Shown here: piece after piece, positions 24,301-59,809 of the stretch
Position numbering within the stretch: position 1 is the stretch's first letter
Layout: each line of letters opens with the position of its first letter
NCBI GenBank assembly: GCA_964515295.1
Contig: CAZETW010000004.1
Location: 4,994-68,993 of the forward strand
DNA from: an uncultured bacterium
GTDB lineage: Bacteria > Zhuqueibacterota > QNDG01 > CAYUAG01
DNA: 64,000 bases
Direction of reading: 5' to 3'
Notes under the pieces: model-generated
What the model was told of the DNA's origin: nothing
The model's database searches: none
What the model saw: the letters and a program-made list of their open reading frames with translations, nothing else
Position numbers and translations under genes: made by a program

Positions 24301-24633
24301 ATGCAAGTTAAAGTGACTGCCAGACATTTTAAATTATCAGATGAACTGAAAGAATATGCTGAAAATGAGACACTGAAATTAAAAAAATATTATGATGGTA
24401 TAATTGATGGTGAAGTAATTTTAGATTGGGAAAATAAAGATCGTATCGCAGAGATAAATCTCTCTGTAAATAATAAGATTTTGTCAGTGCATAAAAGGTC
24501 AGATGATATGACGAAATCAATAAATGCTTGCATAAATAAATTAAAGAGAAGATTAAAAAAATACAAAGACAGACGTCATAATTTTGAACATGAAAAAGTA
24601 AACATTCATTTAGAAAATGAGGTGGATAAATAA
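24301..24633 (+). CDS. hpf: Ribosome hibernation promoting factor (HPF/RaiA, short form)
   Basis: 110 aa; MQVKVTARHFKLSDELKEYAE typical sigma54-modulation/YfiA fold. Confidence 0.85.
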   Translation: MQVKVTARHFKLSDELKEYAENETLKLKKYYDGIIDGEVILDWENKDRIAEINLSVNNKILSVHKRSDDMTKSINACINKLKRRLKKYKDRRHNFEHEKVNIHLENEVDK

Positions 24634-24683
24634 ATAAATCCAAACTGACAGTTAAAAAATTACTGGAAGAAACAAAACAATTA

Positions 24684-41924: not shown

Positions 41925-42332
41925 TTAAAATTGAAGGTCCATAGCCCAGGTGGGGCAGGCAGTAATACATAATTCACAGGCCAGACATTGCGTGTCATCA
42001 AATTCAATTTTTCTGTTTACAGGATTTACTTTTAAGGCATCAGTAGGGCATACTCCCACACATAAACCGCAATGGGTGCACCTTTTTTTATCACGTACAA
42101 CATCTTTTTGAAGCGGCTTAATACTGAGTCCCAGTTTTTTCAGATAATCAAGACCGGATTTATAATCATTATTATTACCTTTTATCTCAAGAACAAGCAC
42201 TCCTTCTTCCTTTGGAGTTATAGCTGCTTTTAAAATATTAAATTCCAGATTATAATCTTTTACCAGCTGACATGCTATGGGCTGATCAACTAATGTTGGC
42301 GGAAATTTTACAACTATGCGTTTTGTAATCAT
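41925..42332 (-). CDS. NIL-domain ferredoxin with two [4Fe-4S] clusters
   Basis: 135 aa; N-terminal NIL domain, C-terminal CTHCGLCVGVCP and CLACELCITACP cluster motifs. Confidence 0.8.
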   Translation of the reverse strand: MITKRIVVKFPPTLVDQPIACQLVKDYNLEFNILKAAITPKEEGVLVLEIKGNNNDYKSGLDYLKKLGLSIKPLQKDVVRDKKRCTHCGLCVGVCPTDALKVNPVNRKIEFDDTQCLACELCITACPTWAMDLQF

Positions 42333-42381: not shown

Positions 42382-43551
42382 TTACTCTTTTTCTGAACCA
42401 GGAATGTAAGCAACCGGATTGGTTAACAAAAACTCTCCCTTTTTTATCCATTCTTTTAAGGATTCGGCGATTTCCACTGCTTTAGGATAGCTTGATAACG
42501 ATGCTGTTTTTATTCTTTTTTTATTTATTGTTATTTCTCCTGATTTTAGTTCTGCGTATGATACTGTTCCCAAAATTTTGTTTTTCCCCTGTGGATAATC
42601 ACTCCCGTAGTCCACAACCGGTGCGTAGATATCTTCATCTCTGACTGCTGTATACCTGGCCATTTGTTCGTTAATTATTGGTATGGGAATACCGATGCTC
42701 ACCATTAAGGTTGCTCCGTATCCTGACATGGACAGTCCCACAAGCCAGGAAGGTTTCATTTTCTTTAAATTACCGATGACTGCCAAAGTACCTGCCGGAA
42801 CCCGTGGGACCTGGCTTTTTGTCCTGGGTACATCGGGTTTATGCTGGGTCCCGGGCCATGCAATGTAACCTCGGTCACCTCCCAGGAAAATTTTGGTTCC
42901 GATCCCTATAGTCTGATATAGGGGATCATTCAGCAGGGGAGAGAGCTGTCCTGCTGAACAATAGGTAGCATTATTCATATTCGGTTTCAGCATACCCATA
43001 TATGTATAAATATTCTTGTCTGTACGGTTTACTGCCACGTTATAATTCTGATATGCATTCCTGGGATTAAATAACACAGCATCATTGACATTTTTAATAT
43101 TAATAATTGTTTCATATTTTCTCCCGGGATAGCAGTCAGTTCCATAAGAGTATGCACGGAGTTCTATATCTTTACCTGAAACAAAATCTTCAATAACATG
43201 TCCGCCGCCATATCTGAACTCACCGGGATGTATTTTATTTTTCGGATCATCTTCAGTAAGCTGAGAACAGCCGAGTAAAATGTCTGCTGCAGCAAATCCG
43301 GTATAAGCAGGAACATTATTCAGATAGCAAATTCCTCCGCCCAGTTTAATTTTTGGTTTTGACTGTGCAATGTTAAAATAAGCTCCACTGGAACACATGG
43401 GTCCGAATGTACCTGTAGTAACAACATCCACCTCCTCTGCTGCTGCCTTTGTACCGTTTTCCTTTACAATAGAAATCATTTCCTCAGCAGTAACAACAAC
43501 AGCTTCTTTTTTTTTGATTTTCTGGTTGATTTCTGCAATAGTCTTTGCCAT
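42382..43551 (-). CDS. DUF39 family protein (L-aspartate-semialdehyde sulfurtransferase-like; homocysteine biosynthesis), lacking CBS domains
   Basis: 389 aa; DUF39 family recalled from sequence features; paired with NIL-ferredoxin as in methanogen MA1821/MA1822. Confidence 0.6.
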   Translation of the reverse strand: MAKTIAEINQKIKKKEAVVVTAEEMISIVKENGTKAAAEEVDVVTTGTFGPMCSSGAYFNIAQSKPKIKLGGGICYLNNVPAYTGFAAADILLGCSQLTEDDPKNKIHPGEFRYGGGHVIEDFVSGKDIELRAYSYGTDCYPGRKYETIINIKNVNDAVLFNPRNAYQNYNVAVNRTDKNIYTYMGMLKPNMNNATYCSAGQLSPLLNDPLYQTIGIGTKIFLGGDRGYIAWPGTQHKPDVPRTKSQVPRVPAGTLAVIGNLKKMKPSWLVGLSMSGYGATLMVSIGIPIPIINEQMARYTAVRDEDIYAPVVDYGSDYPQGKNKILGTVSYAELKSGEITINKKRIKTASLSSYPKAVEIAESLKEWIKKGEFLLTNPVAYIPGSEKE

Positions 43552-43725: not shown

Positions 43726-46700
43726 CTATAGAACCTGTTTACGCAGAGTCTGCTGCATTCTTTTAATTCTTTCAAACAGGTCTCTTCTTTCCGGTGTTCG
43801 TTTTAATACTTCATTCCATTGAAAAACAGCCTTTTTATATTCCCCCCTGTTTGCATAAATTACTCCCAGATTTTCAGCAACTGTAAGATTATCAGGCTGT
43901 ACACGACGGACTTTATCATAGTAATATTCTGATTTATCTAAATTACCGATCTTGAAATAAGCATCTCCAAGATAATGCAGGGCATTTAAATTTGTGGGAT
44001 CTTCATTCAGAACTTTTTTAATCGCAATGATAGCTTTTTCATATGATCCCTGTTTATAAAACCATTTTCCGGATTTTAAAAAGCGCTGAATCCTTTTTTC
44101 TCTGATCCTTTTTTCTTCTTCCGGGTTTGGTTTTTTTTCTTCAGGTACTCTTTTTCTTTTTTGGACATCCAGGCCTTCTGACATCTTAAGAAAACTGGTT
44201 TCTTCCTCCTCTTGTTTATCTTTACCATATTCAATGTCTTCATGTTGTTCTTCATCCAGCAATTCATCTGCTGTAAAAGAAGCTATCTCTTCTTCTACAT
44301 CCTGTTCGTCAAAGACATCAGAGTAATATATATCTTTATGATCAAGTGTTTCTTCAATTTCCTCAAGTTCATCAATTTCTTCTTCACTTTCTTGCGGAAT
44401 TTCTTTTACAATATCCTGTTTTTGTTCTTCTTTTTCTTCAAGAGATTCAGCCGGCGCTTCCTCTTCTGATTCAGGAGTGATAATGTCTTCATCTTCAGAA
44501 CTGCCTATAAAATCATTTAAAATATGATCGGTTTTTTCGTGTATTTCACTTTCATGTTCAGAAATAACTTCTTCAGGTTCTTCAGAGATAACCTCTTCGA
44601 AATCTTTTTCTTCTTCTTTGATTACTTTTCTGTCTTCATCCTCAACGTCAACAGACTGCTCAACGATTGTAGGTTTATTAACAATTTTTCCGTCCAAGGT
44701 AACAAAAGGAGTACCTGGTTTCTTTAGAGCTTTGCGTCCGCCTTTTTCAATAAAAGCCAAACGTAATTCTTTGGTATTTAATTTGCTTTTTACTAATTCA
44801 TCGTAAATTCTTTTTTCATCAATTTCTACATTATCATATTTATCACTCTTTAATTCCTCACTAATTCTTTTTGCTCCATAATCAGGATTATTTTTAATAA
44901 TGTCGATAATTTTGGCTCTGTCTTCAATGCTTATATGTTTATCTTCAATTTTTGTAATTTTCCTTCCGTCATATAATCCTTCTTTTCCCTTTTTATTGTA
45001 TTTCTTTCTGTATTTATAATATGTTGAGGTAGAAACATTTTCCCTTTTACATGCTTCTTTAACACTTAATCCTTTTTTATCAACTAATTTCATCAACCGT
45101 AATCTGTGATTAAATAATACATCCTCAGCTTTCAATTTTTCTCTTATAGCCACCAGGGTAATATCATCAGTTTGCGCAAAACCTTCGGAAAAGATGATTA
45201 TTTCATCTCTGATCTTATTTACAAATGGTTCTACATTTAAGTCTCCATATTCTCTTATGACCGAAAGAAACCGTTCATCACCAAAGCGTTCTCTGTTGTG
45301 ATTCATGGCTTCGGTAATACCATCAGTATAGACGATCAGCGAATCTTCGGGTCTTAAATGCAGAGTGTCAGATTCAATTGTTTTATTAAACAGAGAATCA
45401 TCGGGCAGTTTAATTCCTATGGGAAATCCTTTCGGATTCAGGTAGTAACTTTTTTTGGTAGATCCTCTATAGAGAATCATGGGATTATGTCCGGCACTGG
45501 CGTAATTTATAGATCTTTTCTTGGAATCAAGAATTACATAAAATATAGTAACAAACATTCCGCGTTTCATATCTTTCATGACAAAACTGTTTACTTTAGC
45601 CAGTACATCAGCAGCATTTTTATTGCCGCGCGCTTCAGTACGAAGTGCTGTTCGGATCATGGTCATTACCAGGGAACCAGGAACTCCTTTACCTGAAACG
45701 TCTGCAACCACAATACCCAGAGTATCATTATCTACCTCCACAAAATCAAAGTAATCTCCGCCCACTTCTTTTGCTGCTTCATAGTATGTAGATATCTCAT
45801 ATCCTTCAATATCCGGAAAAGAAGCCGGGAGCAGTGTTTGCTGTATATCCTGGGCAACCTGTACTTCTTTTTGCAGTCTTTCCTGTTCTGCTAAATGTTC
45901 CTGAGTTTCACGAAATTTTTCTGTAATATCATTAAAAGCTTGAGCTATTTCGCCCACTTCATCTGAATTATCGAATTCCATCACATCTTCTGCTTCTCCC
46001 CGTCCCAAAGCTTTAACCCAGTGAGATAATTTTTTAAAAGGACTCATAGTAGTATATACAAGTACAAAAACTCCTATGCAGCCGCTTACTAATATAACCA
46101 AAGATCTCCAGAAAATACTTTTTCTCTTTTGTGCAACGTTACCGTCAACAAAGCTTTTATTCAACATGATATGGACTGAGCCTAAAATATACCTGTTATC
46201 ATCAATTTCAAATTCAGCGGGTTTATTTATGTCATATACACTGCCCACACCAGCATAGTCATATACATATAAACTATCAGATTTTTTTCTGTATTTTCGT
46301 GGGAGTGAAAATGGTTTTAACAGGTTCTCCATATTCACTGCACCCTGAATACTGCCAGTGCTGTCTACAATAATTATTTCTGAAACCAGTGGAGTATGAT
46401 TATGCTGTAATTCAGCTGAAATTCTTGCTAATTCCCAGGTTTCTTCATTAGCAAGAAATTCGGCGGAATTCTGCACTACAGTTGAAGCCAGTTTTTGTCC
46501 TTCTTCAAGATAGGTGTTAAATACTTTTTTCCCTTGATAAATATAATTCCAGATCGAGAATATTAGTATTAAAAAGGTTAATATACCAGAGGCAATCAAC
46601 GAATATCGGGTTTTCATGGAAAAGCTCAACTCTGGTATGGAAAATTTTTTGGAAACATCTAATTCACGAATTTTTGTCAGACGTAATTCATTTCCCTCTA

Positions 46701-47082
46701 CTGTTTTTCTATAGTCGATCTCATCAATGACCTTGCGCATTATAAATATTCCCAAACCGCCTTTTTTTCCGATATTCACATATCTGTCAAGGTCAGGATT
46801 TTTTACTTTTCTGGGATCAAAAGTTTTCCCCTGATCAATGAGAGAAACAGTAACATTCTGTTCTCTTATTATCATCCTGACTGTTATAAAACCTTCCCAG
46901 TCACGATAAGCATGACGGATTATATTTGTACCTGCTTCATCTATGGCCATTTTAAAGGCATTGATGATGTTTTCACTGACACCATATTTTCTGCCTACTT
47001 TGGTGATAAAATCACGCATTTCGCCCAGATTTCCAATATCAGCGGGTACTTTTAATTCTTTTTTCTTTACTTTTTTAAACAT
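43726..47082 (-). CDS. Multidomain signalling protein: RsbW-like GHKL serine kinase + 2 TM with extracytoplasmic sensor + HAMP + PP2C (RsbU/SpoIIE) phosphatase + transposase-type HTH + acidic tract + C-terminal TPRs
   Basis: 1118 aa; DEAGTNIIRHAY and GGLGIFIMRKVIDEI (HATPase_c_2); two TM helices; GDYFDF...TDGITEA...DDITLVAIR (PP2C-SIG); LSVKEACKRENVSTSTYYKYRKKY and PDYGAKRISEEL (IS481/IS3 OrfA-like HTH); E/D-rich region; 3 TPRs. Confidence 0.8.
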   Translation of the reverse strand: MFKKVKKKELKVPADIGNLGEMRDFITKVGRKYGVSENIINAFKMAIDEAGTNIIRHAYRDWEGFITVRMIIREQNVTVSLIDQGKTFDPRKVKNPDLDRYVNIGKKGGLGIFIMRKVIDEIDYRKTVEGNELRLTKIRELDVSKKFSIPELSFSMKTRYSLIASGILTFLILIFSIWNYIYQGKKVFNTYLEEGQKLASTVVQNSAEFLANEETWELARISAELQHNHTPLVSEIIIVDSTGSIQGAVNMENLLKPFSLPRKYRKKSDSLYVYDYAGVGSVYDINKPAEFEIDDNRYILGSVHIMLNKSFVDGNVAQKRKSIFWRSLVILVSGCIGVFVLVYTTMSPFKKLSHWVKALGRGEAEDVMEFDNSDEVGEIAQAFNDITEKFRETQEHLAEQERLQKEVQVAQDIQQTLLPASFPDIEGYEISTYYEAAKEVGGDYFDFVEVDNDTLGIVVADVSGKGVPGSLVMTMIRTALRTEARGNKNAADVLAKVNSFVMKDMKRGMFVTIFYVILDSKKRSINYASAGHNPMILYRGSTKKSYYLNPKGFPIGIKLPDDSLFNKTIESDTLHLRPEDSLIVYTDGITEAMNHNRERFGDERFLSVIREYGDLNVEPFVNKIRDEIIIFSEGFAQTDDITLVAIREKLKAEDVLFNHRLRLMKLVDKKGLSVKEACKRENVSTSTYYKYRKKYNKKGKEGLYDGRKITKIEDKHISIEDRAKIIDIIKNNPDYGAKRISEELKSDKYDNVEIDEKRIYDELVKSKLNTKELRLAFIEKGGRKALKKPGTPFVTLDGKIVNKPTIVEQSVDVEDEDRKVIKEEEKDFEEVISEEPEEVISEHESEIHEKTDHILNDFIGSSEDEDIITPESEEEAPAESLEEKEEQKQDIVKEIPQESEEEIDELEEIEETLDHKDIYYSDVFDEQDVEEEIASFTADELLDEEQHEDIEYGKDKQEEEETSFLKMSEGLDVQKRKRVPEEKKPNPEEEKRIREKRIQRFLKSGKWFYKQGSYEKAIIAIKKVLNEDPTNLNALHYLGDAYFKIGNLDKSEYYYDKVRRVQPDNLTVAENLGVIYANRGEYKKAVFQWNEVLKRTPERRDLFERIKRMQQTLRKQVL

Positions 47083-47097
47083 AAAATTTATTTATAA

Positions 47098-49008
47098 TTA
47101 TTTATTTTTACGGAATGATTTAATTTTGTTTTTCGCTCCTTCAATTGCCTTTAATAATTTAATATTATATGGATCCAATTGCAAGGCTTCTTCCCATCGC
47201 TCTAAAGCTTTTTTATAATGACCCTGTCTGTAAAGAATAATACCCTGATTAAACATTGTTCGTACTTCTTCTGTCATTTCCTGAGTTGCACCTTTAGCAT
47301 GGGCAAGAGCAGTTCTGTAGTAATTTTTTGCCTCACCGTGATCGGGCTGAATGTCCAGGGCTTTCCTGAAATATTGTACAGCAGAAGTGTAATTTTCTTC
47401 ATCAAAATATTCTTTACCTTTCTGGAAATTAGTGGCGAAATCTATACTCTTATTAAGACTATTAATCTGGTTTACGACTCTTCTATAAATTCTTTCATTA
47501 TCCCGGGATTGTTGCTTGGCCTGATTCAGTATATCATATGCTCTGGATACTTCTCCCTGGTTTATTAATTTTTGTGCTCTAGTAAGTGATATATTGATCT
47601 GGTTTACTAAATTATCCTCAGCATTTTTTATGTATTTTTTCAGTTTGGTATTCTGGGGATCTCTTTCCAGGCCTTCTTCCCATTTTTCTATTGCTTCACG
47701 ATAATTTCTATTTTCCAGCGCTTCAATACCTTCAGTTAATTTTTTATGAACAAATGTGCTGTCTTTTCTGTTACTTACTTTTACTCTCTCCTTTTCAAGA
47801 AGCTGATTTTGCTCTCTTTCTTCGGCTAAACGCTGTCTTTCTATTGCTTCCTGTAATAATTCTTGTGCTTTTTTGTTGTCTTCATCTATTTTAAGTATTT
47901 TTGAAAATTCAACTCTGGCATTATAGAAATCACCTTTTTCAAGATAAGATCTACCGTTTTGAAGACTTTCATTGATTTCTCTTAATCTTTCAGCCTGTAC
48001 TCTCTCATTAAACCTTCTTTGTATCTCTAAACGTCGTTTTTCTTCTAAAAGTTCCTTTTGTTCCTCAATAGTCTTTCCAAAATATAATTTCAAGGAAAAC
48101 AGATTACTAACAGGGAAATATTTTGCATCTCCTATAGATTTAATACCATAATCAATTTGCAGATTTTTAAAAAGCAGCCCCACACCTGCGGTTAACTGTT
48201 CTTTCTCATATCCTCCTCGTATAAAGACCATGTTGCCTAATCCCACCTCCATTCCGAAATGATATTCATTTTCTTTGAATTCAGAATGATCAATATCAGC
48301 CATTAGTAATAAATAGTATTTATTGCTGAAAGTGAATATTTTTGCCATTCCGGCTTTAATTTTATAGGGAAGTATATCCTGCTCAGTGTCCATTTTTAAA
48401 CTCGGTTGTAAGAGATTATACATAGTACATCCGAAATGAAGATCATTTAATATGTTTCTGCTGGTTATCCCATAGTGAATTCCGGCATCCAGACCAAATC
48501 CGTTAGCAGAATACTCTCCTAACTCATCTCTGTAAGCATTACCGTTTATACCTACTGAAAACCCTTTAAAGAGTGTAAGGGCATATGATAGGGTTAATTT
48601 AGCTTTCCAGAAGTTAAATGTTCCTCTGTCAACGGGAATATTATTTACATCGTCATAAAAATTTATATCATCAACCCCAAATCGTGCTATTCCAAAACCG
48701 AATGTTCCAATATTTAAAGTCGGATGAATATATCCGATTTGATGATACTGTACTCCTTCAAATAAAGTAAAGAGAGAGAACCCAAGCTGTTTTTGCTGTA
48801 CTACATTCATGCCAGCCGGATTCCAGGCAAAGGCATAGGCATCATTTGGATATGCTGCTGCAGCGTTCCCCATACTTAATTGCTTTGCTCCGGAACCAAT
48901 TCGCAAAAACAAAGATTCTGCTCCTGCATTACCTTGTTTCTGTTGAGCAAAACATGTACCGGCTATTATAAAAATTATTAGAAAAAATTTTATAATTTTA
49001 CTGTTCAT
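47098..49008 (-). CDS. Outer-membrane FadL/PorV-like beta-barrel fused to C-terminal TPR/coiled-coil domain
   Basis: 636 aa; signal peptide; N-terminal motif GSGAKQLSMGNAAAAYPNDAYAFAWNPAGM characteristic of FadL/PorV superfamily; alternating-hydrophobic beta strands; C-terminal half helical TPR-like. Confidence 0.6.
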   Translation of the reverse strand: MNSKIIKFFLIIFIIAGTCFAQQKQGNAGAESLFLRIGSGAKQLSMGNAAAAYPNDAYAFAWNPAGMNVVQQKQLGFSLFTLFEGVQYHQIGYIHPTLNIGTFGFGIARFGVDDINFYDDVNNIPVDRGTFNFWKAKLTLSYALTLFKGFSVGINGNAYRDELGEYSANGFGLDAGIHYGITSRNILNDLHFGCTMYNLLQPSLKMDTEQDILPYKIKAGMAKIFTFSNKYYLLLMADIDHSEFKENEYHFGMEVGLGNMVFIRGGYEKEQLTAGVGLLFKNLQIDYGIKSIGDAKYFPVSNLFSLKLYFGKTIEEQKELLEEKRRLEIQRRFNERVQAERLREINESLQNGRSYLEKGDFYNARVEFSKILKIDEDNKKAQELLQEAIERQRLAEEREQNQLLEKERVKVSNRKDSTFVHKKLTEGIEALENRNYREAIEKWEEGLERDPQNTKLKKYIKNAEDNLVNQINISLTRAQKLINQGEVSRAYDILNQAKQQSRDNERIYRRVVNQINSLNKSIDFATNFQKGKEYFDEENYTSAVQYFRKALDIQPDHGEAKNYYRTALAHAKGATQEMTEEVRTMFNQGIILYRQGHYKKALERWEEALQLDPYNIKLLKAIEGAKNKIKSFRKNK

Positions 49009-52000
49009 CTATTTTACCACAGCAATTTTTGTTTTTACTATATTGTCGTCTGTATCCATAACCAATATATATACACCGTTAAGTACTGTGTTTCCATTAT
49101 CATTGGTGCCGTTCCATTCAACCTGATTACTCCCCCTTGAATGAAGTCCTTTTCTTCCTTCCGGATCAGTACTGCTGAAAGATTCTGACCAGACTAATTC
49201 TCCGATTAAATTATAAATGCTGAAATTTACATTTGTATCCTTGTCTAAATAGTAAACAATGGTTGTAGTTTTTTTACCCGGTGAACCGAATGGATTGGGA
49301 AAATTCAGTAGATATGCTTTATCGTCTGTTCCCACATCTTCACTTGATATCACCTGTTTTTGCCAGTTGCTCTTTAACTCAAATCTATCTCCTGAAGGAG
49401 ATAACACCGGCAGTGAAACATAAGGGACATACTCATCAACAGCTGTAATATAGGTGCTGTCAGGCATTTCCAGCATAAAATTCACTGTCTTTTCTGTTGT
49501 ATGCATGTCTGCAAGGAGAGCGATTTTCAGTGTATCCTGAGTCTTAATCGGGTTCATATGATCAATTAAAATGTTAACCGGATTTTCGGCAGGTATTTGT
49601 GATGAAGACAGTGTAGCCAGACAGCTGTCTTTATTATAATAATATCTTCCATTCTTCTTTATTAATTTGCATAGTTTGATTTTCTTATAAATAGAAGAAG
49701 GATTTAATGGCTGGTGAGAAAAGTCTAGAAGATTAAATTTTATTTTTGTCAGTAATACTCCATTCGCACCTGCTTCACCTCTGTTGATCATTTCAAATCC
49801 TGTTAGCCAGACATTATTTTGCCCGCTTATTACTTGACTTGAAATAGAATCCGGCTGGTCTAATTCTGTAACGGAAAGCCAGGTTCCCACTGTTGTTACC
49901 CCGATATCTGCACTTACTTTACTTGCATATGCTTCTTCAGATGTATTCTGATCCCAGGGAATTTTTGAAATATAAGCTGAGATAGTGGCAGTTTCGCCTG
50001 TGGAGTAGGGAGGTGCTTTAATCATCCAGTTTGTTTTTTCCTGTGTCGCATAATGAACCGGAGATTCTTTTGTTGTATATCCTTCAGGTAATTGTTCCAG
50101 AGTAATCATAGCAGTACCAAGAGTATCAGCTTCTCCTTTGTTTTCTATCTCTGCATACAGGATAAATTCCTGAGAGGGAGAAACAGATTTGTCATCAATG
50201 TTAAGGTTCAATGCCAGATCAGCTTTTTTTACAGTTTGTATCTCAATACCTTTCTGTTCTGCAGATATTATTACATCCTCTTGCTGAAGTGCATCGTAGC
50301 CGGATGCATTTACATAAATAGTTCTTTTATCTGTTGCTCCTTTGGGCGCTCTGATTTGCCAGGTTACTTCATTTGATATCACTTTTTTATCCAGGTTATC
50401 CGAGGTGGTATATCCGGTTGGCAATGTTATGGAGGCAGTGATATCCCTTACATAATTCCAGGTCAGACTTGCTCTTACTACAAAATACTGATCGGATGAT
50501 ACTTTTTGATTAACTGCTCCGGGCGGTGAGGCTATACCCAATGAACTGGTAAGAAAACTTTTATGAGTTATTACAGATATTTTTTCTGTCTTTTTTTCAA
50601 TTTTTGCAACTTGTCCGGTGTTTCTGGCTAAAGGAGGTTTATACAGAGTAACATTTATTGTTTGCCAGTCTGTGGCAATATTGGGCGATTTGATTTCCCA
50701 GGTTGCAGGTGAATTAAGAGTAATGGAATTATTAACTGATCCGCTGAGTGTATAGGGAGAAGGAAGAGTTATTCTTATTTTTCCGGTAGTATCAATAGCA
50801 CCAGATCCATGATTTTCCAGATGTGCGGTGAGGATAAAAACCTGGTTGGTTGTAAATTCTCCTATGGGATTGCTTAATTTCAGTTTTATTGAGAGGTCTG
50901 CCGGTTTCTGAATATAAGCAAAAGCTACAGGATCTAAAGCCGGACCAACAGGTACCTCTGAATCATCCTTTTTGGCACTTGTTATAGAAGCAGTAAATTG
51001 TTCTCCGGAAATATTTTCCACTGCTGATGCGGTAAGGTAAAATATTACAGAATCTCTTTGGGATGGTGACAGAGAAAGTATGGTTAAATCTGAATTTTCT
51101 ATATTTGATATTTCGCTTTCCAAATGAACATTAATATTCTTGACTGCATGACCTAATCCGTTTTCTACTGATACAATAACTTTAAATTCCTGGTTTGTAT
51201 CCAAATACGCATTGCCTCCCTCGGTTGTATTATAAGCATCGATCACAGTTGATACAATTCTAAAGGCCGGATTGGACTGCACTGATATTAAGGCTGATGC
51301 ATTATTCTGTTTTATGTTTCCGGTGTTTTTTTCAACTCCCTGGATATTGGTTTTAACTTCTACCTCTCCGCCGTATAGTCCGGTTAGTTTAACTTTGTAT
51401 ACTAATGTATCCCTTGTTCCGCTTTTCAGGCTGATATTTTTGGTGGTACATTCTGTAATATAATCTGTGAGTTTTAGATCTTCATGCCAGAAACTGATAT
51501 TTGATTTCAGGGTATCTATCTGAATTTCTGCATAATAATCTATAGGGGCCTGACTTTGCCCGTTAGCAAGTACAACTTTAACAAACCAGGGTTCAGTCTG
51601 ACCTCCCATTACTTTATTTGTGGAAGTGATAATTTTTTCAATGGACAGAGTTCCTGGCTGTTGTACATGTACTTTGGTTGTGTCATCAACAGGATTTTTA
51701 CTTGTCAGAGAATCATTCTTATTATCAGTCCATCCGCCGCCGCTTACTGTAAAGATTTCATTGTACAGATAGGTTTGAAAGGCATTACCTGTTACTGTGA
51801 TAACAGAAGTTTCACCGCCCTCAAGAGGATCAACAGGGATACGGGTAGGGAAATTAAACCAGGGATGTTCTGAAGTTAAATGTAATCCGATGTCATGTAA
51901 TCCATCTCCGCCTGTATTGGCTATTTTAATGTTCATGTCAAATTCCTGATTGATATTAACATAGGGTGCATTGGGAGCCATATTTGTAAGTTCGAGAATT

Positions 52001-55000
52001 TTTAATTCCGCTTCTTCTTCAATAATTACTGTTCCCCATCCTGCATTATCAGTGTTGTCAGAAACCTGTAATTCTGTATTTATTTCAGTACCTGAAACAG
52101 AGGCGTTTATTTTACATTCTCCAGTGCTGTTTTCTCCTGTATGAATAACCTGATAGTTCAGACTGTCGATAGTTTCACCTTCAAGAATCCATCCTCCTTT
52201 AGCAAGAGAATCCGGTCGTATTACTGCCCAATTATCTCCAATACTGAAAGAAAGAGAAGTGTTTACAGCAGCCGAAACAGAATCAATCAACACACTGCTT
52301 TCACCCCGGTTACTCAGTACTACTGCTATTGACCAGTTTGTGTCCTGAGCAACTGTTACTTCATTCTGGGAGGTGATGATTTCATTGACAATCAAATCAG
52401 CCGGCGTCTGTACATTAACTGAAGTCCAGGCTTGATCAGTTAATTGTTCACCAGCGATAGTGGAAGTATATAAAAATCCCTGTATGAGTGCTGAGCCTTT
52501 ATCCGCACCGGTACTGTCTATGGTTACAACTAATGTATCTGTAGAATAACCGGATAATATTTTTGTACCACTATTCTTAAATGTATCAGGAATTGATATT
52601 TGATAATCATTTTTCAGTATCCCGTCAGTTTTTATATTTAACCCGATACTGTCAAGAGTAACATTGTTGCTGCTCAGGTTTTCCACAGTCATAATAAGGA
52701 ACCAGTCTTTGTTTTGATTTGCAGTTATATGCTGTACAAGAGTAGAGTAATCATTTTTTACCGGTTTAAAATCCAAAATTCTCAGCCCCGGTGCATTTAT
52801 AACATTAAAACTATTAGAAACTCCACTGGGTGCAGGTTCCTCTGCACCTGTTTCTGTAACTGTAATAACATTACCTGAGTATTGGGTGTTCACTGTAACG
52901 CTTCCATTCCATATACCGTTAACAAAATTCGAACTTTTTTGCGGTTGTATAGTAGCGGAAGAATCAGTGATATCAACAGTACCGGTAAAATTGGATTTGA
53001 CATTATCATTTTCATCATAGGTAGTGATATTTAACGGAAACGGCTGACCTGTTACCTGAGTATTGATCAAGCCTATTTCAAAATAAGACACTTGTCCGGG
53101 AATAACTATAATGGAACCGGTATGAGCTGATATATCAGTTTGTGGTTTATGTGTCTTTATATTGCCGCTTCCCGGTTTACTGGGGATATAGGTGATGTCA
53201 GATTTATTTGAGATGTTAACTGCAGGAGTTAATCCCTGGGAACTCCAATCTACAATTTCAGTTCCTCTGAAGTTTCCATAGCCGTCATATCCTACAGAAT
53301 AAAGATCCAGACTTTCTCCTACACTTAAGGTGTCGTTAATTATTTCTTCTCCTTCATGAATAGGAACATTTTTTATCTTAAGCTGAGACAGAGTTCCTGG
53401 ATTTACTAAAATATCACTCACAACAGAAGAAATATCGTTTACCTGGCCTTTCAGCGCAACTCCGCTTTCTGCTTTTACTAATATCTGATTAGCCTGCCCT
53501 GAACCGTTTATCACCTGAATATCATTGAAAATCGGAGACGACCCATTGGGAGAATTCCCTCCCAGATTATTACAGGTTACAGTAACCATACCTGACCAAT
53601 TATTCTGATATTTATCCTGTGCATCAGTTAGTGTTAAGGGAAATGGTATTCCTGCCGTTTGAATTGAGCCGCAATTCAAGGCAAATGTGTCTATGGAAGC
53701 ATACGTGACCGTAATACTGCTGCTGGTCTTACTTATTTCTCCATCAGTAACAGTTACGGTTTGTTGGGGGGAATTATATAAAATAAAAGATGAACCGAAG
53801 AATACTTTTTGTCCGTTATTCCATCCGGTTCCGTTATCAACCGGCAGTGTTGCCGGATATGGTTCTTTATCTGAAGAACTCCAGATAATAATTCCTTCAT
53901 AATCGGTTTTTTTATTTTTATAGCTGTCAAATGCAGTTACCGTAACCCCGTAGGAGAAAGGCTGTCCGGCACGCCTGGTTTCAGGTAATCCTTCTATAGT
54001 AAAATCACCAAGTTCGCCAGGGAGGACCAGGATTGAATGACTGGTTCTGCTTACTGTCCCGTCAATTACTTTGATTGTCTGGGAGGGTGCATTAAATAAA
54101 AGAAAAGAAGAACCACTAAACGTTTTGCTTCCATTTACCCAGCCTGTTCTGTCATCTGTAGGTAATGCTGCAGGGTAAGGAGTGCCGTCAGAAGAATTCC
54201 AGATAACAATTCCGGAATAATTAGTTTTTAAATTATTATATTCATCAAAAGCAGAGACGGTAACATTACTATTGAATTGCTGACCTGCAATAGTACTGGA
54301 TGGAACTCCGCTTAACTCAAATCTGTCAAGATCTGTTGCATATACAGTAATCGGATCTGATGTTTCGATGACGCTCCCGTCCTGAACTGTAACAGTTTGT
54401 TCAGTGGTATTGTAGAGTTTAAATGAAGTTCCCGGAAAAGTCTTTTTTCCCCCACTCCATCCGGTTCCGTCATCTTCCGGAAGATCAGCAGGATATGGAA
54501 TACCGTCACTGGATACCCAGTCCACTGTACCCTGGTAGTCATTTTTGACATTTCCATAAAAATCATAAGCAGTAATTTCAATATCATTGTTAAAAACAGA
54601 ACCTGCTTCAACGCTGCCGGGGATTCCGCTTATCTTAAAACTATCAAGCGCTGCCGGTTCAACTGTTACATTATATGTAGTACTGGTTATAGAGCCATCT
54701 GATACAGAAAGCCATTGAGTACCTGCTGTACATAATTTGAATAGGGCACCACTGAATTTTTTTGATCCGTTATTCCATTCACTGCCGTCATCAGTGGGAA
54801 GTAAGACTTTTTCGTTAGTATCAGATGTATGCCAGGTGACAGTACCGTTATATGTATCTTCAATTTGCCCGTATTGATTATAGGCAGTCACTTCAATACT
54901 GTCAGGGAACTGCTGGCCTGCTTGAACAGTAGCTGGTACATTTGTTAGCTCCAATCTGGCTAAAGTCCCGGCATTTGTTTCAGGTGCTTTTAAAGGGTGA

Positions 55001-55098
55001 TTAACTTGTGCCCCCAACGTTTTATTGACATAAAAATTAAGTGTCACCCCCGAAAGGAATACTGCGGTCAAAAAGATTTTTTTCAAGGATATATTCAT
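49009..55098 (-). CDS. Giant secreted repeat protein with T9SS (Por) C-terminal sorting domain
   Basis: 2029 aa; signal peptide; at least 4.5 tandem ~105-aa repeats near N-terminus; C-terminal ~90 aa NFPNPFGSPG...IYNLIGELV...GVYILVM...KIAVVK matches T9SS CTD. Confidence 0.85.
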   Translation of the reverse strand: MNISLKKIFLTAVFLSGVTLNFYVNKTLGAQVNHPLKAPETNAGTLARLELTNVPATVQAGQQFPDSIEVTAYNQYGQIEDTYNGTVTWHTSDTNEKVLLPTDDGSEWNNGSKKFSGALFKLCTAGTQWLSVSDGSITSTTYNVTVEPAALDSFKISGIPGSVEAGSVFNNDIEITAYDFYGNVKNDYQGTVDWVSSDGIPYPADLPEDDGTGWSGGKKTFPGTSFKLYNTTEQTVTVQDGSVIETSDPITVYATDLDRFELSGVPSSTIAGQQFNSNVTVSAFDEYNNLKTNYSGIVIWNSSDGTPYPAALPTDDRTGWVNGSKTFSGSSFLLFNAPSQTIKVIDGTVSRTSHSILVLPGELGDFTIEGLPETRRAGQPFSYGVTVTAFDSYKNKKTDYEGIIIWSSSDKEPYPATLPVDNGTGWNNGQKVFFGSSFILYNSPQQTVTVTDGEISKTSSSITVTYASIDTFALNCGSIQTAGIPFPLTLTDAQDKYQNNWSGMVTVTCNNLGGNSPNGSSPIFNDIQVINGSGQANQILVKAESGVALKGQVNDISSVVSDILVNPGTLSQLKIKNVPIHEGEEIINDTLSVGESLDLYSVGYDGYGNFRGTEIVDWSSQGLTPAVNISNKSDITYIPSKPGSGNIKTHKPQTDISAHTGSIIVIPGQVSYFEIGLINTQVTGQPFPLNITTYDENDNVKSNFTGTVDITDSSATIQPQKSSNFVNGIWNGSVTVNTQYSGNVITVTETGAEEPAPSGVSNSFNVINAPGLRILDFKPVKNDYSTLVQHITANQNKDWFLIMTVENLSSNNVTLDSIGLNIKTDGILKNDYQISIPDTFKNSGTKILSGYSTDTLVVTIDSTGADKGSALIQGFLYTSTIAGEQLTDQAWTSVNVQTPADLIVNEIITSQNEVTVAQDTNWSIAVVLSNRGESSVLIDSVSAAVNTSLSFSIGDNWAVIRPDSLAKGGWILEGETIDSLNYQVIHTGENSTGECKINASVSGTEINTELQVSDNTDNAGWGTVIIEEEAELKILELTNMAPNAPYVNINQEFDMNIKIANTGGDGLHDIGLHLTSEHPWFNFPTRIPVDPLEGGETSVITVTGNAFQTYLYNEIFTVSGGGWTDNKNDSLTSKNPVDDTTKVHVQQPGTLSIEKIITSTNKVMGGQTEPWFVKVVLANGQSQAPIDYYAEIQIDTLKSNISFWHEDLKLTDYITECTTKNISLKSGTRDTLVYKVKLTGLYGGEVEVKTNIQGVEKNTGNIKQNNASALISVQSNPAFRIVSTVIDAYNTTEGGNAYLDTNQEFKVIVSVENGLGHAVKNINVHLESEISNIENSDLTILSLSPSQRDSVIFYLTASAVENISGEQFTASITSAKKDDSEVPVGPALDPVAFAYIQKPADLSIKLKLSNPIGEFTTNQVFILTAHLENHGSGAIDTTGKIRITLPSPYTLSGSVNNSITLNSPATWEIKSPNIATDWQTINVTLYKPPLARNTGQVAKIEKKTEKISVITHKSFLTSSLGIASPPGAVNQKVSSDQYFVVRASLTWNYVRDITASITLPTGYTTSDNLDKKVISNEVTWQIRAPKGATDKRTIYVNASGYDALQQEDVIISAEQKGIEIQTVKKADLALNLNIDDKSVSPSQEFILYAEIENKGEADTLGTAMITLEQLPEGYTTKESPVHYATQEKTNWMIKAPPYSTGETATISAYISKIPWDQNTSEEAYASKVSADIGVTTVGTWLSVTELDQPDSISSQVISGQNNVWLTGFEMINRGEAGANGVLLTKIKFNLLDFSHQPLNPSSIYKKIKLCKLIKKNGRYYYNKDSCLATLSSSQIPAENPVNILIDHMNPIKTQDTLKIALLADMHTTEKTVNFMLEMPDSTYITAVDEYVPYVSLPVLSPSGDRFELKSNWQKQVISSEDVGTDDKAYLLNFPNPFGSPGKKTTTIVYYLDKDTNVNFSIYNLIGELVWSESFSSTDPEGRKGLHSRGSNQVEWNGTNDNGNTVLNGVYILVMDTDDNIVKTKIAVVK
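53570..54966 (-). repeat. Tandem ~310-bp coding repeats (~105-aa units) inside the giant T9SS cargo gene
   Basis: Protein-level repeats LxxFxIxGxPxxxxAGQxF...VTAxDxYGNxKxxYxGxVxWxSSD...LPxDxGTGWxxGxKxFxGxSFxLxNxxxQTVTVxDG...TSxxITV observed four to five times. Confidence 0.7.
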
Positions 55099-55414
55099 AA
55101 ACTATTTTTTTTCATAGACCTATACTTTACATATTACTCCGTATTATATTTGGCTTTTTTAATACGGGCAAATAATATACCATAATTACAAAATTAATTT
55201 ATAATCTTATAATTCCATAAAAAACAAAAGTTTGTAAAAATGGTGATTTTTAAGTTAATAAAAATATTATTTAAATGGTATTATACTGGATGATTTTCAA
55301 CCACTTACTGAAAAAGGGGAATAGTTAATTTGTTCAGTGAAGTCAGACTTTATTTATATACTATATAAAGAGGGGGATTTTATATAGTGTATTGTTTAAA
55401 AAAATTTATTTTTA

Positions 55415-58777: not shown

Positions 58778-58837
58778 GATATAATTCCTCCCTTAAATTC
58801 TCAATAATGTAACCCCTCTTCCTCATTCCTAAAAATT

Positions 58838-59788: not shown

Positions 59789-59809
59789 TTAAATATTTTT
59801 TTATGACCT

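What the first reader, a model, noticed from the sequence alone, without database searches (positions are those of the whole stretch)
43726..47082. Single polypeptide fusing an RsbW-like anti-sigma kinase, a transmembrane sensor, HAMP, an RsbU/SpoIIE PP2C phosphatase, a transposase-derived HTH, an acidic tract and TPRs
Partner-switching modules normally split the GHKL serine kinase (RsbW/SpoIIAB) and the PP2C phosphatase (RsbU/SpoIIE) between separate proteins that act antagonistically on a STAS anti-anti-sigma factor. Here both catalytic domains sit in one 1118-aa membrane protein, with topology kinase-TM-sensor-TM-HAMP-PP2C. It also carries an IS481/IS3 OrfA-like helix-turn-helix pair, which looks like a domesticated transposase DNA-binding domain with no DDE domain. 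That is followed by a ~130-residue Glu/Asp-rich tract and three C-terminal TPRs. No STAS-domain substrate or sigma factor is adjacent. The architecture suggests a self-contained switch that could act directly on DNA or on the neighbouring TPR and outer-membrane proteins. I do not recognise this arrangement as a described family.
Basis: partly seen in the sequence, partly recalled or inferred. Interest (0 to 1): 0.85.

Follow-up and report, generated by a model that had tools for sequence, protein, structure and literature searches.

The report
Membrane sensor fusing kinase and phosphatase
This is a real, widely conserved but unstudied membrane signalling protein that carries both the kinase and the phosphatase of a bacterial "partner-switching" circuit; its substrate does exist, but in this lineage that gene has moved elsewhere in the genome, so the protein is an interesting variant of a known design rather than a new kind of switch.

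Summary
The 1118-aa ORF (43726-47082, minus strand) is real. An independent assembly gives the identical ORF. More than 100 full-length homologs share the layout, and the catalytic motifs of both enzymes are invariant.

It is not self-contained. In relatives down to about 45% identity, a 205-240-aa STAS protein with a phosphorylatable Ser is encoded directly downstream. In Latescibacterota it is fused to the protein. Its C-terminal module is homologous to the second HTH of the enzyme. In the window's clade this gene has moved: a MAG carrying an 83%-identical homolog holds it on another contig.

The gene is the third in a conserved operon: a giant protein with a T9SS-type tail, then a PorV-family barrel with TPRs, then this protein. 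A conserved sigma-54-type promoter precedes the operon.

Kinase/PP2C fusions are already described (SypE, HsbR/CrsR, Rv1364c). The best reading is a membrane-bound, SypE-like bifunctional enzyme that sets the phosphorylation state of a STAS-HTH regulator. It is a new variant of a known kind.

The parts
43726..47082 (-). Whole gene: 1118-aa bifunctional kinase/phosphatase membrane sensor
   Evidence: ORF list and translation. The identical ORF appears in an independent assembly. Full-length homologs are colinear.
46672..47049 (-). RsbW/SpoIIAB-type GHKL serine kinase domain (residues 12-137), cytoplasmic
   Evidence: Pfam HATPase_c_2, E 3.7e-26. The best PDB match is RsbW 6m36, E 1.2e-12. The N-box E49/N53, D83xG85 and G105-G111 are invariant in 76 homologs.
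46537..46611 (-). Transmembrane helix 1 (residues 158-182)
   Evidence: Kyte-Doolittle 19-residue window, maximum 2.07. Helical in the AF2 model.
46120..46536 (-). Periplasmic sensor domain (residues 183-321), PDC/Cache-like, the most variable part of the family
   Evidence: AF2 gives a long helix plus about six strands at pLDDT 85-90. The Latescibacterota homolog hits sCache_3_2 at 2.8e-6, 27.9 bits, just under the 28.4 cutoff. Conservation in A1 is low.
46036..46119 (-). Transmembrane helix 2 (residues 322-349)
   Evidence: Kyte-Doolittle maximum 2.33.
45916..46062 (-). HAMP domain (residues 341-389), followed by a coiled-coil linker to about residue 417
   Evidence: Pfam HAMP, 26.3 bits against a cutoff of 25. 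Helix 375-417 in the AF2 model.
45142..45729 (-). PP2C/SpoIIE-type serine phosphatase domain (residues 452-647)
   Evidence: Pfam SpoIIE, E 2e-48. PDB matches are the RssB PP2C domain, Rv1364c and SiaA. The metal-site motifs GGD443, D461VSGKG, T586-D587-G588 and D639-D640 are invariant.
44737..45132 (-). Bipartite HTH block (residues 651-782): HTH_23/28-type followed by HTH_32/21-type, basic (pI 9.7)
   Evidence: Pfam and NCBIfam hits. AF2 gives eight helices at pLDDT about 85-90. pI. Residues 710-780 are homologous to the C-terminus of the STAS partner (hhalign 97.5%, E 6e-12).
44203..44667 (-). Acidic disordered linker (residues 806-960; 44% D/E, pI 4.05), variable in length and sequence across the family
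   Evidence: Composition. pLDDT about 30. Large indels in A1.
43732..44124 (-). C-terminal TPR domain (residues 987-1117; three TPRs plus a capping helix), cytoplasmic
   Evidence: Pfam TPR_2, three stretches. AF2 gives seven helices at pLDDT above 90. Conserved in the KSB1 and Calditrichota homologs.
47098..49008 (-). Upstream operon partner: 636-aa PorV/PorQ-family outer-membrane barrel with C-terminal TPRs; its stop lies 15 nt before the start of the target gene
   Evidence: NCBIfam NF033709, 116 bits against a cutoff of 90. Pfam PorV/UPF0164 plus TPR. Found directly upstream of the fused homologs wherever that flank is readable.
49009..55098 (-). First operon gene: 2029-aa secreted giant protein with a signal peptide, N-terminal repeats of about 100 aa and a T9SS type-A/FlgD_ig-like C-terminal tail (sub-threshold)
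   Evidence: TIGR04183, 18.9 bits against a cutoff of 23; FlgD_ig weak. Sequence. Homologs sit at the same position in eight loci; L089 holds a cut upstream gene with only a faint FlgD_ig hit.
55168..55182 (-). Sigma-54-type -24/-12 promoter candidate, TGGTATATTATTTGC, ending 69 nt upstream of the giant gene's ATG
   Evidence: 0.39 matches expected by chance in the window. 11 of 18 strict matches in all sequence held lie at this position, in seven independent loci including KSB1 and Eisenbacteria.
55287..55303 (.). 17-bp dyad TGGTTGAAAATCATCCA, about 120 nt upstream of the promoter candidate; a possible enhancer or operator
   Evidence: The same or a related dyad lies at the same offset in L082, L084/85 and L088, and closer in L086.

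Best explanation
The protein is the enzyme component of a partner-switching-type phosphorylation circuit, built like a membrane-bound SypE. It has an N-terminal RsbW-type serine kinase and a C-terminal-side PP2C phosphatase. Where SypE has a receiver domain between the two, this protein has a transmembrane Cache-like sensor plus HAMP.

Its substrate is a dedicated STAS protein of about 205-240 aa, with the conserved phospho-acceptor motif VDYISSAGWG. That protein carries a C-terminal HTH-like module homologous to the second HTH of the enzyme.

Proposed working (inferred, not shown): a periplasmic cue sensed by the 183-321 domain passes through TM2, HAMP and the coiled coil and shifts the balance between kinase and phosphatase. 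That balance sets the phosphorylation state of the STAS-HTH protein. The STAS-HTH protein, and possibly the enzyme's own basic bipartite HTH, then acts on transcription. The most economical target is the sigma-54-type-promoted operon that encodes the giant T9SS-type surface protein, the PorV-like barrel and the enzyme itself.

Shown here: the domains, the intact catalytic motifs, the conserved operon, the STAS partner and its relocation in this clade, the shared HTH module, and the conserved -24/-12-type promoter motif.

Inferred: both enzymatic activities, the identity of the signal, DNA binding and the regulated target.
For: Domains and topology.

Catalytic competence: the kinase N-box E49/N53 and the G-boxes, and the PP2C motifs GGD443, D461VSGKG, T586-D587-G588 and D639-D640, are invariant in 76 homologs of 44-85% identity. 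They align with RsbW, SpoIIAB, RssB and Rv1364c.

Substrate: a STAS ORF lies immediately downstream in L004, L005, L008, L009, L010 and L075, and downstream at a longer gap in L012. It is also downstream in L084-L086, L088 and L089. It is fused as three STAS domains in L006; L007 and L011 are similar long STAS-containing ORFs. It scores above the TIGR00377 cutoff. S60 and S61 are invariant, and S61 aligns with the Ser of the DSAG motif of TM1442.

Relocation: the STAS-HTH protein P0123 is on contig 12 of MAG GCA_964554015.1. That MAG's contig 10 carries the 83%-identical enzyme P0003. Both also occur in JGI sample 3300031255.

Shared module: hhalign 97.5% probability, E 6e-12, enzyme residues 710-780 against the STAS partner's C-terminus.

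Operon and promoter.

Precedents:
- SypE is a dual kinase/phosphatase on the STAS protein SypA (PMC10120452, PMC8256260).
- HsbR/CrsR (PMC6482189).
- HAMP-to-PP2C signalling through crossing helical linkers (PMC12143880).
- CapK/CapS, in which a GHKL kinase phosphorylates a STAS-wHTH repressor (PMC13373217).
Against: - No biochemical data exist for any member of the family.
- In this window the substrate gene is absent. I could not identify the window's own assembly, so the presence of the orphan STAS-HTH gene in this very genome is inferred from an 83%-identical relative.
- DNA binding by either HTH is untested. Foldseek against the PDB gave no significant match for the HTH model (best E 0.1).
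- A sigma-54 promoter normally needs an AAA+ enhancer-binding protein. None is in the cluster or the window, so the STAS-HTH protein may not be the regulator of this operon.
- The roles of the acidic tract and the TPRs remain unexplained.
Confidence: 0.7

Rival explanations
1. It is a classical anti-sigma partner switch. The N-terminal RsbW-like domain sequesters an alternative sigma factor encoded elsewhere, the STAS protein relieves that sequestration, and the HTH modules are accessory.
For: The domain is most similar to RsbW and SpoIIAB, which are anti-sigma factors. HsbR and CrsR combine kinase activity with binding of RpoS (PMC6482189).
Against: No sigma-factor gene appears within about 10 kb in any of the six loci listed with Pfam annotation, or in the window. 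The operon promoter is sigma-54-like, and no RsbW-type anti-sigma factor is known for that class. The STAS partner carries its own conserved HTH-like output module.
Confidence: 0.15
2. The shared HTH-like module is a protein-protein docking device rather than a DNA binder. It tethers the STAS substrate to the enzyme or to a common partner, and the output is post-transcriptional, for example control of secretion or assembly of the giant surface protein. This would resemble SypA, whose target is unknown and not a sigma factor.
For: The same module of about 70 aa is present on both the enzyme and the substrate. SypA acts on an unknown, non-sigma target (PMC8256260). Foldseek gives no significant DNA-binding match. 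The cluster is tightly linked to envelope proteins.
Against: The block matches DNA-binding HTH families, including the IS481 N-terminus at E 5.7e-15, and is basic, pI 9.7. The top-ranked structural neighbours are bipartite DNA-binding domains: TnsB, Pax and CENP-B. CapS shows that a STAS-wHTH protein can be a repressor (PMC13373217).
Confidence: 0.2
3. The ORF is an artefact: a frameshift or assembly join that fuses two or three adjacent genes. Alternatively it is a decaying gene whose domains are no longer functional.
For: GC falls to 0.28-0.30 around 44500-45250, which could suggest a junction.
Against: The low-GC stretch covers the second HTH and the start of the GAA/GAT-rich acidic tract. 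An independent assembly yields the identical ORF. More than 100 homologs from NCBI, JGI, ENA and Logan are colinear at 1076-1475 aa. The catalytic motifs are invariant.
Confidence: 0.01

Closest known systems
SypE of Vibrio fischeri (with its STAS substrate SypA)
   Same: One polypeptide has an N-terminal RsbW-like serine kinase, a central signal-input module and a C-terminal PP2C phosphatase. It acts in both directions on a STAS protein whose output is not a known sigma factor (PMC10120452, PMC8256260).
   Different: The central module here is TM/Cache-like sensor/TM/HAMP rather than a cytoplasmic receiver domain. There is an extra bipartite HTH, an acidic linker and a TPR tail. The substrate carries an HTH-like C-terminal module. 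The genomic context is a T9SS-type cargo and a PorV-like operon, not a polysaccharide locus. No close sequence relationship was shown here.
HsbR (Pseudomonas aeruginosa) and CrsR (Shewanella oneidensis), with HsbA and CrsA
   Same: They are bifunctional PP2C plus GHKL kinase proteins that control the phosphorylation state of a STAS antagonist (PMC6482189).
   Different: The domain order is REC-PP2C-kinase. They are soluble response regulators that bind RpoS. They have no HTH or TPR, and their substrate is a STAS-only protein.
Rv1364c of Mycobacterium tuberculosis
   Same: It is a multidomain fusion of sensor, PP2C, GHKL kinase and STAS (PMC7693655). Its PP2C domain is among the best PDB matches (3ke6, E 1.6e-13). 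The Latescibacterota relatives of the window protein also fuse STAS domains.
   Different: The order is PAS-PP2C-kinase-STAS. It is cytoplasmic and has no HTH or TPR. In the window protein the kinase comes first and STAS is a separate gene.
CapK/CapS (controller of adjacent immune operons)
   Same: A GHKL anti-sigma-type kinase that carries an HTH phosphorylates a STAS-wHTH protein, which is a DNA-binding repressor of an adjacent operon (PMC13373217). This is the best precedent for a STAS-HTH output without a sigma factor.
   Different: CapK is HTH-STAS-GHKL, soluble, activated by ssDNA and has no phosphatase. CapS has a winged HTH. The context is anti-phage operons. A profile of the STAS partner found only classical anti-sigma antagonists in the PDB at E<=0.01; I could not confirm whether CapS is in that copy.
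HAMP-PP2C (RsbU-family) membrane phosphatases
   Same: The TM sensor, HAMP, coiled coil and PPM phosphatase are arranged as in the general linker-mediated activation model (PMC12143880).
   Different: Those proteins lack the N-terminal kinase and the HTH and TPR tail. In Ignavibacteria and Bacteroidota loci the corresponding kinase, STAS and HAMP-PP2C are separate genes.
IS481/IS3/IS630 transposase N-terminal DNA-binding region
   Same: Residues 659-769 match positions 1-108 of the IS481 transposase profile (E 5.7e-15), along with HTH_23/28/32 and HTH_Tnp_1.
   Different: There is no DDE/rve domain. Outside the family, seven of the ten near relatives I sampled are DDE-less proteins with two HTH pairs, one has a single HTH pair, one is fused to a glycosyltransferase, and one is a true IS481-like transposase.

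Membership tests
Partner-switching module (RsbW/RsbU/RsbV type) | GHKL serine kinase (HATPase_c_2) with an intact N-box and G-boxes | tested here: met
   Pfam E 3.7e-26. Alignment to RsbW 6m36. E49, N53, D83, G85 and G105-G111 are invariant.
Partner-switching module (RsbW/RsbU/RsbV type) | PP2C/SpoIIE phosphatase with metal-binding aspartates | tested here: met
   Pfam E 2e-48. D443, D461, D587, D639 and D640 are invariant and align with Rv1364c and RssB.
Partner-switching module (RsbW/RsbU/RsbV type) | Cognate STAS-domain substrate with a phosphorylatable Ser | tested here: inconclusive
   None is in the window. It is present downstream or fused in most relatives, and elsewhere in the same MAG as the 83%-identical homolog. 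For this exact genome its presence is inferred, not shown.
Partner-switching module (RsbW/RsbU/RsbV type) | A sigma factor held by the kinase/anti-sigma domain | tested here: not met
   No sigma-factor gene is in the window or within about 10 kb in six annotated related loci. A distant sigma factor cannot be excluded.
Partner-switching module (RsbW/RsbU/RsbV type) | Demonstrated phosphorylation and dephosphorylation of the STAS protein | not testable with these tools
   This needs biochemistry.
SypE-like dual kinase/phosphatase | N-terminal RsbW-like kinase and C-terminal PP2C in one polypeptide | tested here: met
   Kinase at 12-137 and PP2C at 452-647 in one ORF. Conserved in the 120 best homologs.
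SypE-like dual kinase/phosphatase | Central receiver (REC) domain that sets the direction of the switch | tested here: not met
   There is no REC hit. The central module is TM/sensor/TM/HAMP.
Rv1364c-like fusion | Order sensor-PP2C-kinase-STAS in one cytoplasmic protein | tested here: not met
   The kinase precedes the PP2C, the protein is membrane-bound and it has no STAS domain.
IS481/IS3 transposase | DDE (rve) catalytic domain after the N-terminal HTH | tested here: not met
   Only profile positions 1-108 of 284 are matched, and there is no rve hit.
CapK/CapS | HTH-STAS-GHKL kinase paired with a STAS-wHTH repressor upstream of an immune operon | tested here: not met
   The architecture and the context differ. 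The resemblance is functional only (PMC13373217).
PorV/PorQ family (neighbour gene 47098-49008) | Score above the NCBIfam NF033709 cutoff | tested here: met
   116 bits against a cutoff of 90.
T9SS type-A sorting-domain cargo (neighbour gene 49009-55098) | Score above the TIGR04183 cutoff | tested here: inconclusive
   18.9 bits against a cutoff of 23, and a weak FlgD_ig hit. The C-terminal sequence looks typical. Whether the genome has T9SS core genes was not testable.
Sigma-54-dependent promoter | GG-N10-GC elements (TGGCAC-N5-TTGC consensus, from established knowledge) at a fixed short distance upstream of the gene, conserved among orthologous loci | tested here: met
   TGGTATATTATTTGC ends 69 nt before the ATG. 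The motif recurs at the same place in seven independent loci, accounting for 11 of 18 strict matches in 3.36 Mb. Dependence on RpoN and on an activator was not testable.

The most novel reading that the evidence does not exclude
The four genes form an undescribed, sigma-factor-independent envelope-surveillance circuit, widespread in candidate phyla of and near the FCB group (KSB1, Calditrichota, Latescibacterota, Zixibacteria, Eisenbacteria and others). The genes are a giant T9SS-type surface protein, a PorV-like barrel with TPRs, the membrane kinase/phosphatase and the STAS-HTH protein, all behind a sigma-54-type promoter. In this reading the periplasmic sensor monitors the state of the co-encoded surface protein and PorV-like complex. 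It then toggles a STAS-HTH transcription factor. The enzyme's own basic HTH, masked by its acidic tail, and the substrate's homologous HTH would compete or cooperate on the upstream dyad. This would be the first link between partner switching and type IX-style secretion.
Probability: 0.25. Interest if true: 0.7.

Novelty: new variant of a known kind. Interest (0 to 1): 0.55.

Why it matters
Partner-switching circuits are best known as sigma-factor regulators in cultured Firmicutes, Actinobacteria and Proteobacteria.

Here the same chemistry is packaged as a single membrane sensor. Its substrate carries its own HTH-like output module. The genes are hard-wired into an operon for a giant surface protein and a PorV-family outer-membrane protein, across many uncultured phyla.

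About 2200 clusters (at 90% identity) of the STAS partner family were recovered at E<=1e-10; the 120 listed are 203-241 aa. If the proposed working is right, the family gives a tractable, bioinformatically well-defined handle on how these little-known bacteria regulate a major cell-surface structure. It would also add a third example, after SypA and CapS, of STAS proteins that signal without a sigma factor.

For genome annotation, the practical lesson is that an 'orphan' fused kinase/phosphatase should prompt a genome-wide search for a relocated STAS partner.

Tried and rejected
- **STAS gene or remnant in the window.** I used phmmer with SpoIIAA, RsbV and TM1442 seeds written from memory, an HMM of the partner family, and tblastn with four partners. 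The only hit was the enzyme's own second HTH. A pseudogenised downstream STAS is therefore rejected.
- **Identity of the window's own assembly.** I tried exact-protein look-ups.
- **Structural neighbours of the HTH block.** Foldseek against the PDB found nothing significant, best E 0.1. A sequence search of the PDB found only a weak hit to an HTH protein, 2lvs, E 0.034.
- **Frameshift or chimera.** Rejected.
- **Recent transposase domestication.** Not supported by the nearest relatives of the HTH block.
- **Literature.** No paper links partner switching with type IX secretion or describes this architecture.
- **Terminators and sigma-70 promoters.** The scans around the operon found no more sites than shuffled sequence.
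- **Sigma factor or enhancer-binding protein.** None is in the window.

Full report
**1.

The ORF on the minus strand at 43726-47082 starts with ATG and encodes 1118 residues. Pfam finds:
- HATPase_c_2 at residues 12-137 (E 3.7e-26);
- HAMP at 341-389 (26.3 bits, cutoff 25);
- SpoIIE/PP2C at 452-647 (E 2e-48);
- overlapping HTH_23, HTH_28, HTH_32 and HTH_Tnp_1 hits at 659-760;
- three TPR_2 repeats at 1002-1098.

NCBIfam ranks RsbW first for the N-terminus. It matches only positions 1-108 of the 284-position IS481 transposase model at residues 659-769 (E 5.7e-15), so the HTH part is matched and the DDE part is not.

Two hydrophobic segments, 158-182 and 322-349, bracket a stretch of about 140 residues. 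Residues 806-960 are 44% Asp+Glu, pI 4.05.

An AlphaFold2 model built on 76 homologs is confident for five parts:
- the kinase;
- a sensor domain made of a long helix plus about six strands (PDC/Cache-like);
- the PP2C domain;
- an eight-helix HTH block at 652-780;
- a seven-helix TPR domain at 987-1117.

It is disordered at 782-985.

Because the kinase needs ATP and there are two TM helices, every domain except 183-321 is cytoplasmic.

**2. It is not an artefact and not a one-off**

A Logan assembly of sequencing run SRR7048220 yields the identical 1118-aa ORF with the same neighbours. A search of 5.8 billion proteins returns 1897 hits at E<=1e-5. The 120 best score at least 932 bits. Apart from two shorter entries, one of them annotated as partial, they are 1076-1475 aa long with the same domain set. 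Their sources label them only 'SpoIIE family protein phosphatase' or 'RsbU / anti-sigma regulatory factor'.

In alignments of 18 and 76 sequences (44-85% identity to the window protein), the following are invariant:
- the kinase N-box (E49, N53) and G-boxes (D83xG85, G105-G111);
- the PP2C metal-site motifs GGD443, D461-VSGKG, T586-D587-G588 and D639-D640.

These line up with RsbW (6m36), SpoIIAB, the PP2C domain of RssB and Rv1364c.

The HTH block and the TPR block are also conserved in the KSB1 and Cloacimonas-type members, where the precomputed Pfam annotation lists no HTH family. The sensor domain and the acidic linker are the variable parts. The low-GC stretch around 44500-45250 covers the second HTH and the start of the GAA/GAT-rich acidic tract. 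It is not a junction.

**3. Distribution**

Among GTDB species representatives, the layout varies by lineage.

| Layout | Lineages |
|---|---|
| Full-length, including TPRs | Calditrichota, KSB1 and unclassified MAGs |
| Kinase to HTH, without the TPR tail | Two further Calditrichota-lineage MAGs (L004, L005), Latescibacterota, Eisenbacteria, Omnitrophota, one Ignavibacteria MAG |
| Kinase to PP2C only | One Spirochaetia MAG |
| Kinase, STAS and HAMP-PP2C as separate adjacent genes | Ignavibacteria, Bacteroidota |

The organism of the window itself could not be named. Its nearest GTDB relatives are only 45-49% identical.

**4. The missing substrate**

A screen of all ORFs in the window and 81 loci, using three classical STAS sequences, found no STAS in the window. 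It did find one directly downstream of, or fused to, the homolog in most related loci. Homologs of 51-65% identity (P0006, P0007, P0026, P0035) have a STAS gene of 208-224 aa a short distance downstream. In Latescibacterota the enzyme is extended by three STAS domains, giving 1468 aa with an sCache_3_2-like sensor.

The partner protein scores above the curated cutoff for anti-sigma factor antagonists (TIGR00377, 63.3 against 53.45). Its STAS domain is almost invariant across 41 members. It carries the motif VDYISSAGWG, in which S61 aligns with the Ser of the DSAG motif of TM1442. From established knowledge of SpoIIAA (S58) and RsbV (S56), this is the phospho-acceptor position.

After a variable linker comes a C-terminal module of about 60 residues (NPxWGxxKIxKELNTEKYGF...). 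This module is homologous to residues 710-780 of the enzyme, its second HTH (hhalign probability 97.5%, E 6e-12). It weakly matches HTH_32, HTH_21 and the IS481 N-terminus.

**5. Why the window lacks it**

tblastn finds no STAS remnant in the window or in the locus of the 83%-identical homolog P0003. A search with the partner of P0006 recovers about 2200 clusters at E<=1e-10. Among them is a distinct subgroup, P0122-P0130, of 203-207 aa and 67-70% identity.

One of these, P0123, lies on contig CAZKMO010000012 of MAG GCA_964554015.1. P0003 lies on contig CAZKMO010000010 of the same MAG. Both also occur in JGI sample 3300031255.

In four assemblies this orphan STAS gene sits between a signal peptidase gene and a gene for a 1043-1048-aa Tricorn-like peptidase. 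In the P0006 locus the equivalent peptidase gene (1042 aa) follows the STAS gene directly. A rearrangement therefore cut between the enzyme gene and the STAS gene in the ancestor of the window's clade.

The substrate has moved rather than been lost. For the window's own genome this is an inference.

**6. Conserved operon**

The enzyme gene starts 15 nt after a gene for a 636-aa protein. That protein is a PorV/PorQ-family outer-membrane barrel (NF033709, 116 bits, cutoff 90) with C-terminal TPRs.

The barrel gene in turn abuts a gene for a 2029-aa protein. That protein has a signal peptide, N-terminal repeats of about 100 residues and a C-terminal tail resembling T9SS type-A/FlgD_ig sorting domains. 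The tail scores below threshold, 18.9 against 23 bits.

The order giant protein, then PorV-TPR, then enzyme recurs in Calditrichota, KSB1, Latescibacterota and Ignavibacteria loci and in the loci of the closer homologs. Eisenbacteria and Omnitrophota loci keep a longer PorV-TPR-like gene upstream, and the Spirochaetia locus keeps one too.

**7. A sigma-54-type promoter**

The sequence TGGTATATTATTTGC (55168-55182, minus strand) ends 69 nt upstream of the giant gene's ATG. It has the exact GG-N10-GC spacing of the sigma-54 consensus TGGCAC-N5-TTGC, which I take from established knowledge. The pattern TGGYAY-N5-TTGC is expected 0.39 times in the window by chance.

Across all sequence held, 3.36 Mb counting both strands, there are 18 strict matches. 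Eleven of them, in seven independent loci, lie just upstream of the orthologous giant gene. These include KSB1 (TGGTATAGTTTTTGC) and Eisenbacteria (TGGCATGCCTCTTGC).

About 120-130 nt further upstream lies a 17-bp dyad, TGGTTGAAAATCATCCA (window 55287-55303). The identical dyad is in L082, and related versions are in L084/85 and L088. L086 has one about 70 nt upstream.

No enhancer-binding protein, sigma factor or STAS gene is in the window, which otherwise holds housekeeping genes.

**8. The HTH block**

It is predicted to fold (pLDDT about 85-90) and is basic (pI 9.7).

A search of 1.84 billion representative proteins finds 433 hits at E<=0.001. The best 100 or so are mostly the family itself or fragments of it. 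I scanned ten of the weaker, non-family hits against Pfam:
- seven are DDE-less proteins with two tandem HTH pairs;
- one has a single HTH pair;
- one is fused to a glycosyltransferase;
- one is an IS481-like transposase with an rve domain.

Foldseek against the PDB gives no significant match (best E 0.1). The top-ranked entries are the bipartite DNA-binding regions of TnsB transposases, Pax paired domains and CENP-B.

The module is therefore of the transposase/paired type. A specific domestication event cannot be shown.

**9. How it most likely works**

The arrangement of kinase, input module and PP2C is that of SypE. SypE is a dual kinase/phosphatase on the STAS protein SypA, and its central receiver domain decides which activity prevails (PMC10120452, PMC8256260).

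In the window protein the receiver is replaced by a transmembrane Cache-like sensor and HAMP. This is the usual input for RsbU-family phosphatases, which are switched by crossing helical linkers (PMC12143880).

I therefore propose that a periplasmic cue shifts the kinase/phosphatase balance and sets the phosphorylation state of the STAS-HTH protein.

For the output, the closest precedent is CapK/CapS. There a GHKL kinase that itself carries an HTH phosphorylates a STAS-wHTH repressor and so de-represses an adjacent operon (PMC13373217). The conserved dyad upstream of the sigma-54-type promoter is a candidate site.

The acidic tail next to a basic HTH could act as an intramolecular mask. That is speculation.

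What is shown: the anatomy, the conservation, the operon, the partner, the shared module and the promoter motif. What is inferred: the enzymatic activities, the signal, DNA binding and the target.

**10. Rivals**

- A classical anti-sigma function for the kinase domain remains possible. No sigma gene is linked to the cluster.
- The shared HTH-like module could be a docking device, with a post-transcriptional output as proposed for SypA.
- The artefact hypothesis is refuted.

**11. Comparison with what is known, and verdict**

Fusions of a kinase with a PP2C are described:
- SypE;
- HsbR/CrsR, with the order REC-PP2C-kinase (PMC6482189);
- Rv1364c, with the order PAS-PP2C-kinase-STAS (PMC7693655).

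I found the following described nowhere:
- the membrane-embedded version with a bipartite HTH, an acidic linker and a TPR tail;
- a STAS substrate that shares the enzyme's HTH module;
- the conserved linkage to a PorV-family protein and a giant T9SS-type protein behind a sigma-54-type promoter, across many uncultured phyla.

I rate it a new variant of a known kind, of moderate interest.

Noticed in passing
window 55168-55182 (- strand): A sigma-54-type -24/-12 motif, TGGTATATTATTTGC, ends 69 nt upstream of the 2029-aa gene. The same motif with identical spacing lies upstream of the orthologous giant gene in seven independent loci, including KSB1 and Eisenbacteria. These account for 11 of 18 strict matches in 3.36 Mb.
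   Followed up: partly
window 55287-55303: A 17-bp dyad, TGGTTGAAAATCATCCA, lies about 120 nt upstream of the sigma-54-type motif. The identical dyad is at the same offset in L082, and related dyads are in L084/85 and L088. L086 has one closer to the promoter. It is a candidate enhancer or operator.
   Followed up: partly
L006:9974-14380, L007:2003-6316, L011:10007-14269 (Latescibacterota and unclassified MAGs): Here the enzyme homolog is a long ORF of 1420-1468 aa. The L006 protein carries three fused STAS domains by Pfam, and the L007 and L011 ORFs also match the STAS seeds. Two or three further stand-alone STAS genes lie 2-3 kb downstream. This is a much expanded substrate set.
   Followed up: partly
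L082:21030-22010 and L095:1-654: The window's clade encodes a protein of about 326-331 aa that combines a rubrerythrin domain with a SpoIIE/PP2C domain. In L095 it lies about 7 kb upstream of the orphan STAS-HTH gene, among rubrerythrin, rubredoxin and Msr genes. It could be a redox-sensing second phosphatase for the same STAS protein.
   Followed up: no
L090-L095 around position 8001-8624: In the window's clade the linker of the relocated STAS-HTH protein is basic (pI about 10.7 in P0123). In other clades it is visibly Asp/Glu-rich. This is the same region in which the enzyme has its long acidic tract.
   Followed up: no
window 44772-44786 (+ strand): A second exact match to TGGYAY-N5-TTGC lies antisense inside the target gene, within the part that codes for the second HTH. 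It is not conserved in the 83%-identical locus L082, so it is probably chance.
   Followed up: partly
window 57500-61558 (- strand): This gene row has weak type IV pilus or T2SS-like signatures: a PilM_2 C-terminus, GspM-like (T2SSM_b), and a 582-aa protein with a pseudopilin-like N-terminus. Two of these proteins have no Pfam hit at the 1e-6 cutoff, and the 582-aa one has none even at 0.01.
   Followed up: no
window 24301-25607 (+ strand): An HPF gene ('sigma-54 modulation protein' family) is followed by HPr kinase. In many bacteria this pair sits next to rpoN. Here it follows xerD and topA, and no rpoN is in the window.
   Followed up: no
window 17724-21101 (+ strand): SecA is 1125 aa long. 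The 290-position SecA_DEAD profile is spread over residues 6-551, which implies an insertion of about 250 residues in the first nucleotide-binding domain.
   Followed up: no
window 42382-43551 and 41925-42332 (- strand): An HcyBio (homocysteine biosynthesis, sulfur incorporation) gene and a NIL+4Fe-4S ferredoxin gene lie directly downstream of the target, where relatives have the STAS gene. This marks the rearrangement breakpoint. No terminator-like site was found in the 174-nt gap.
   Followed up: partly
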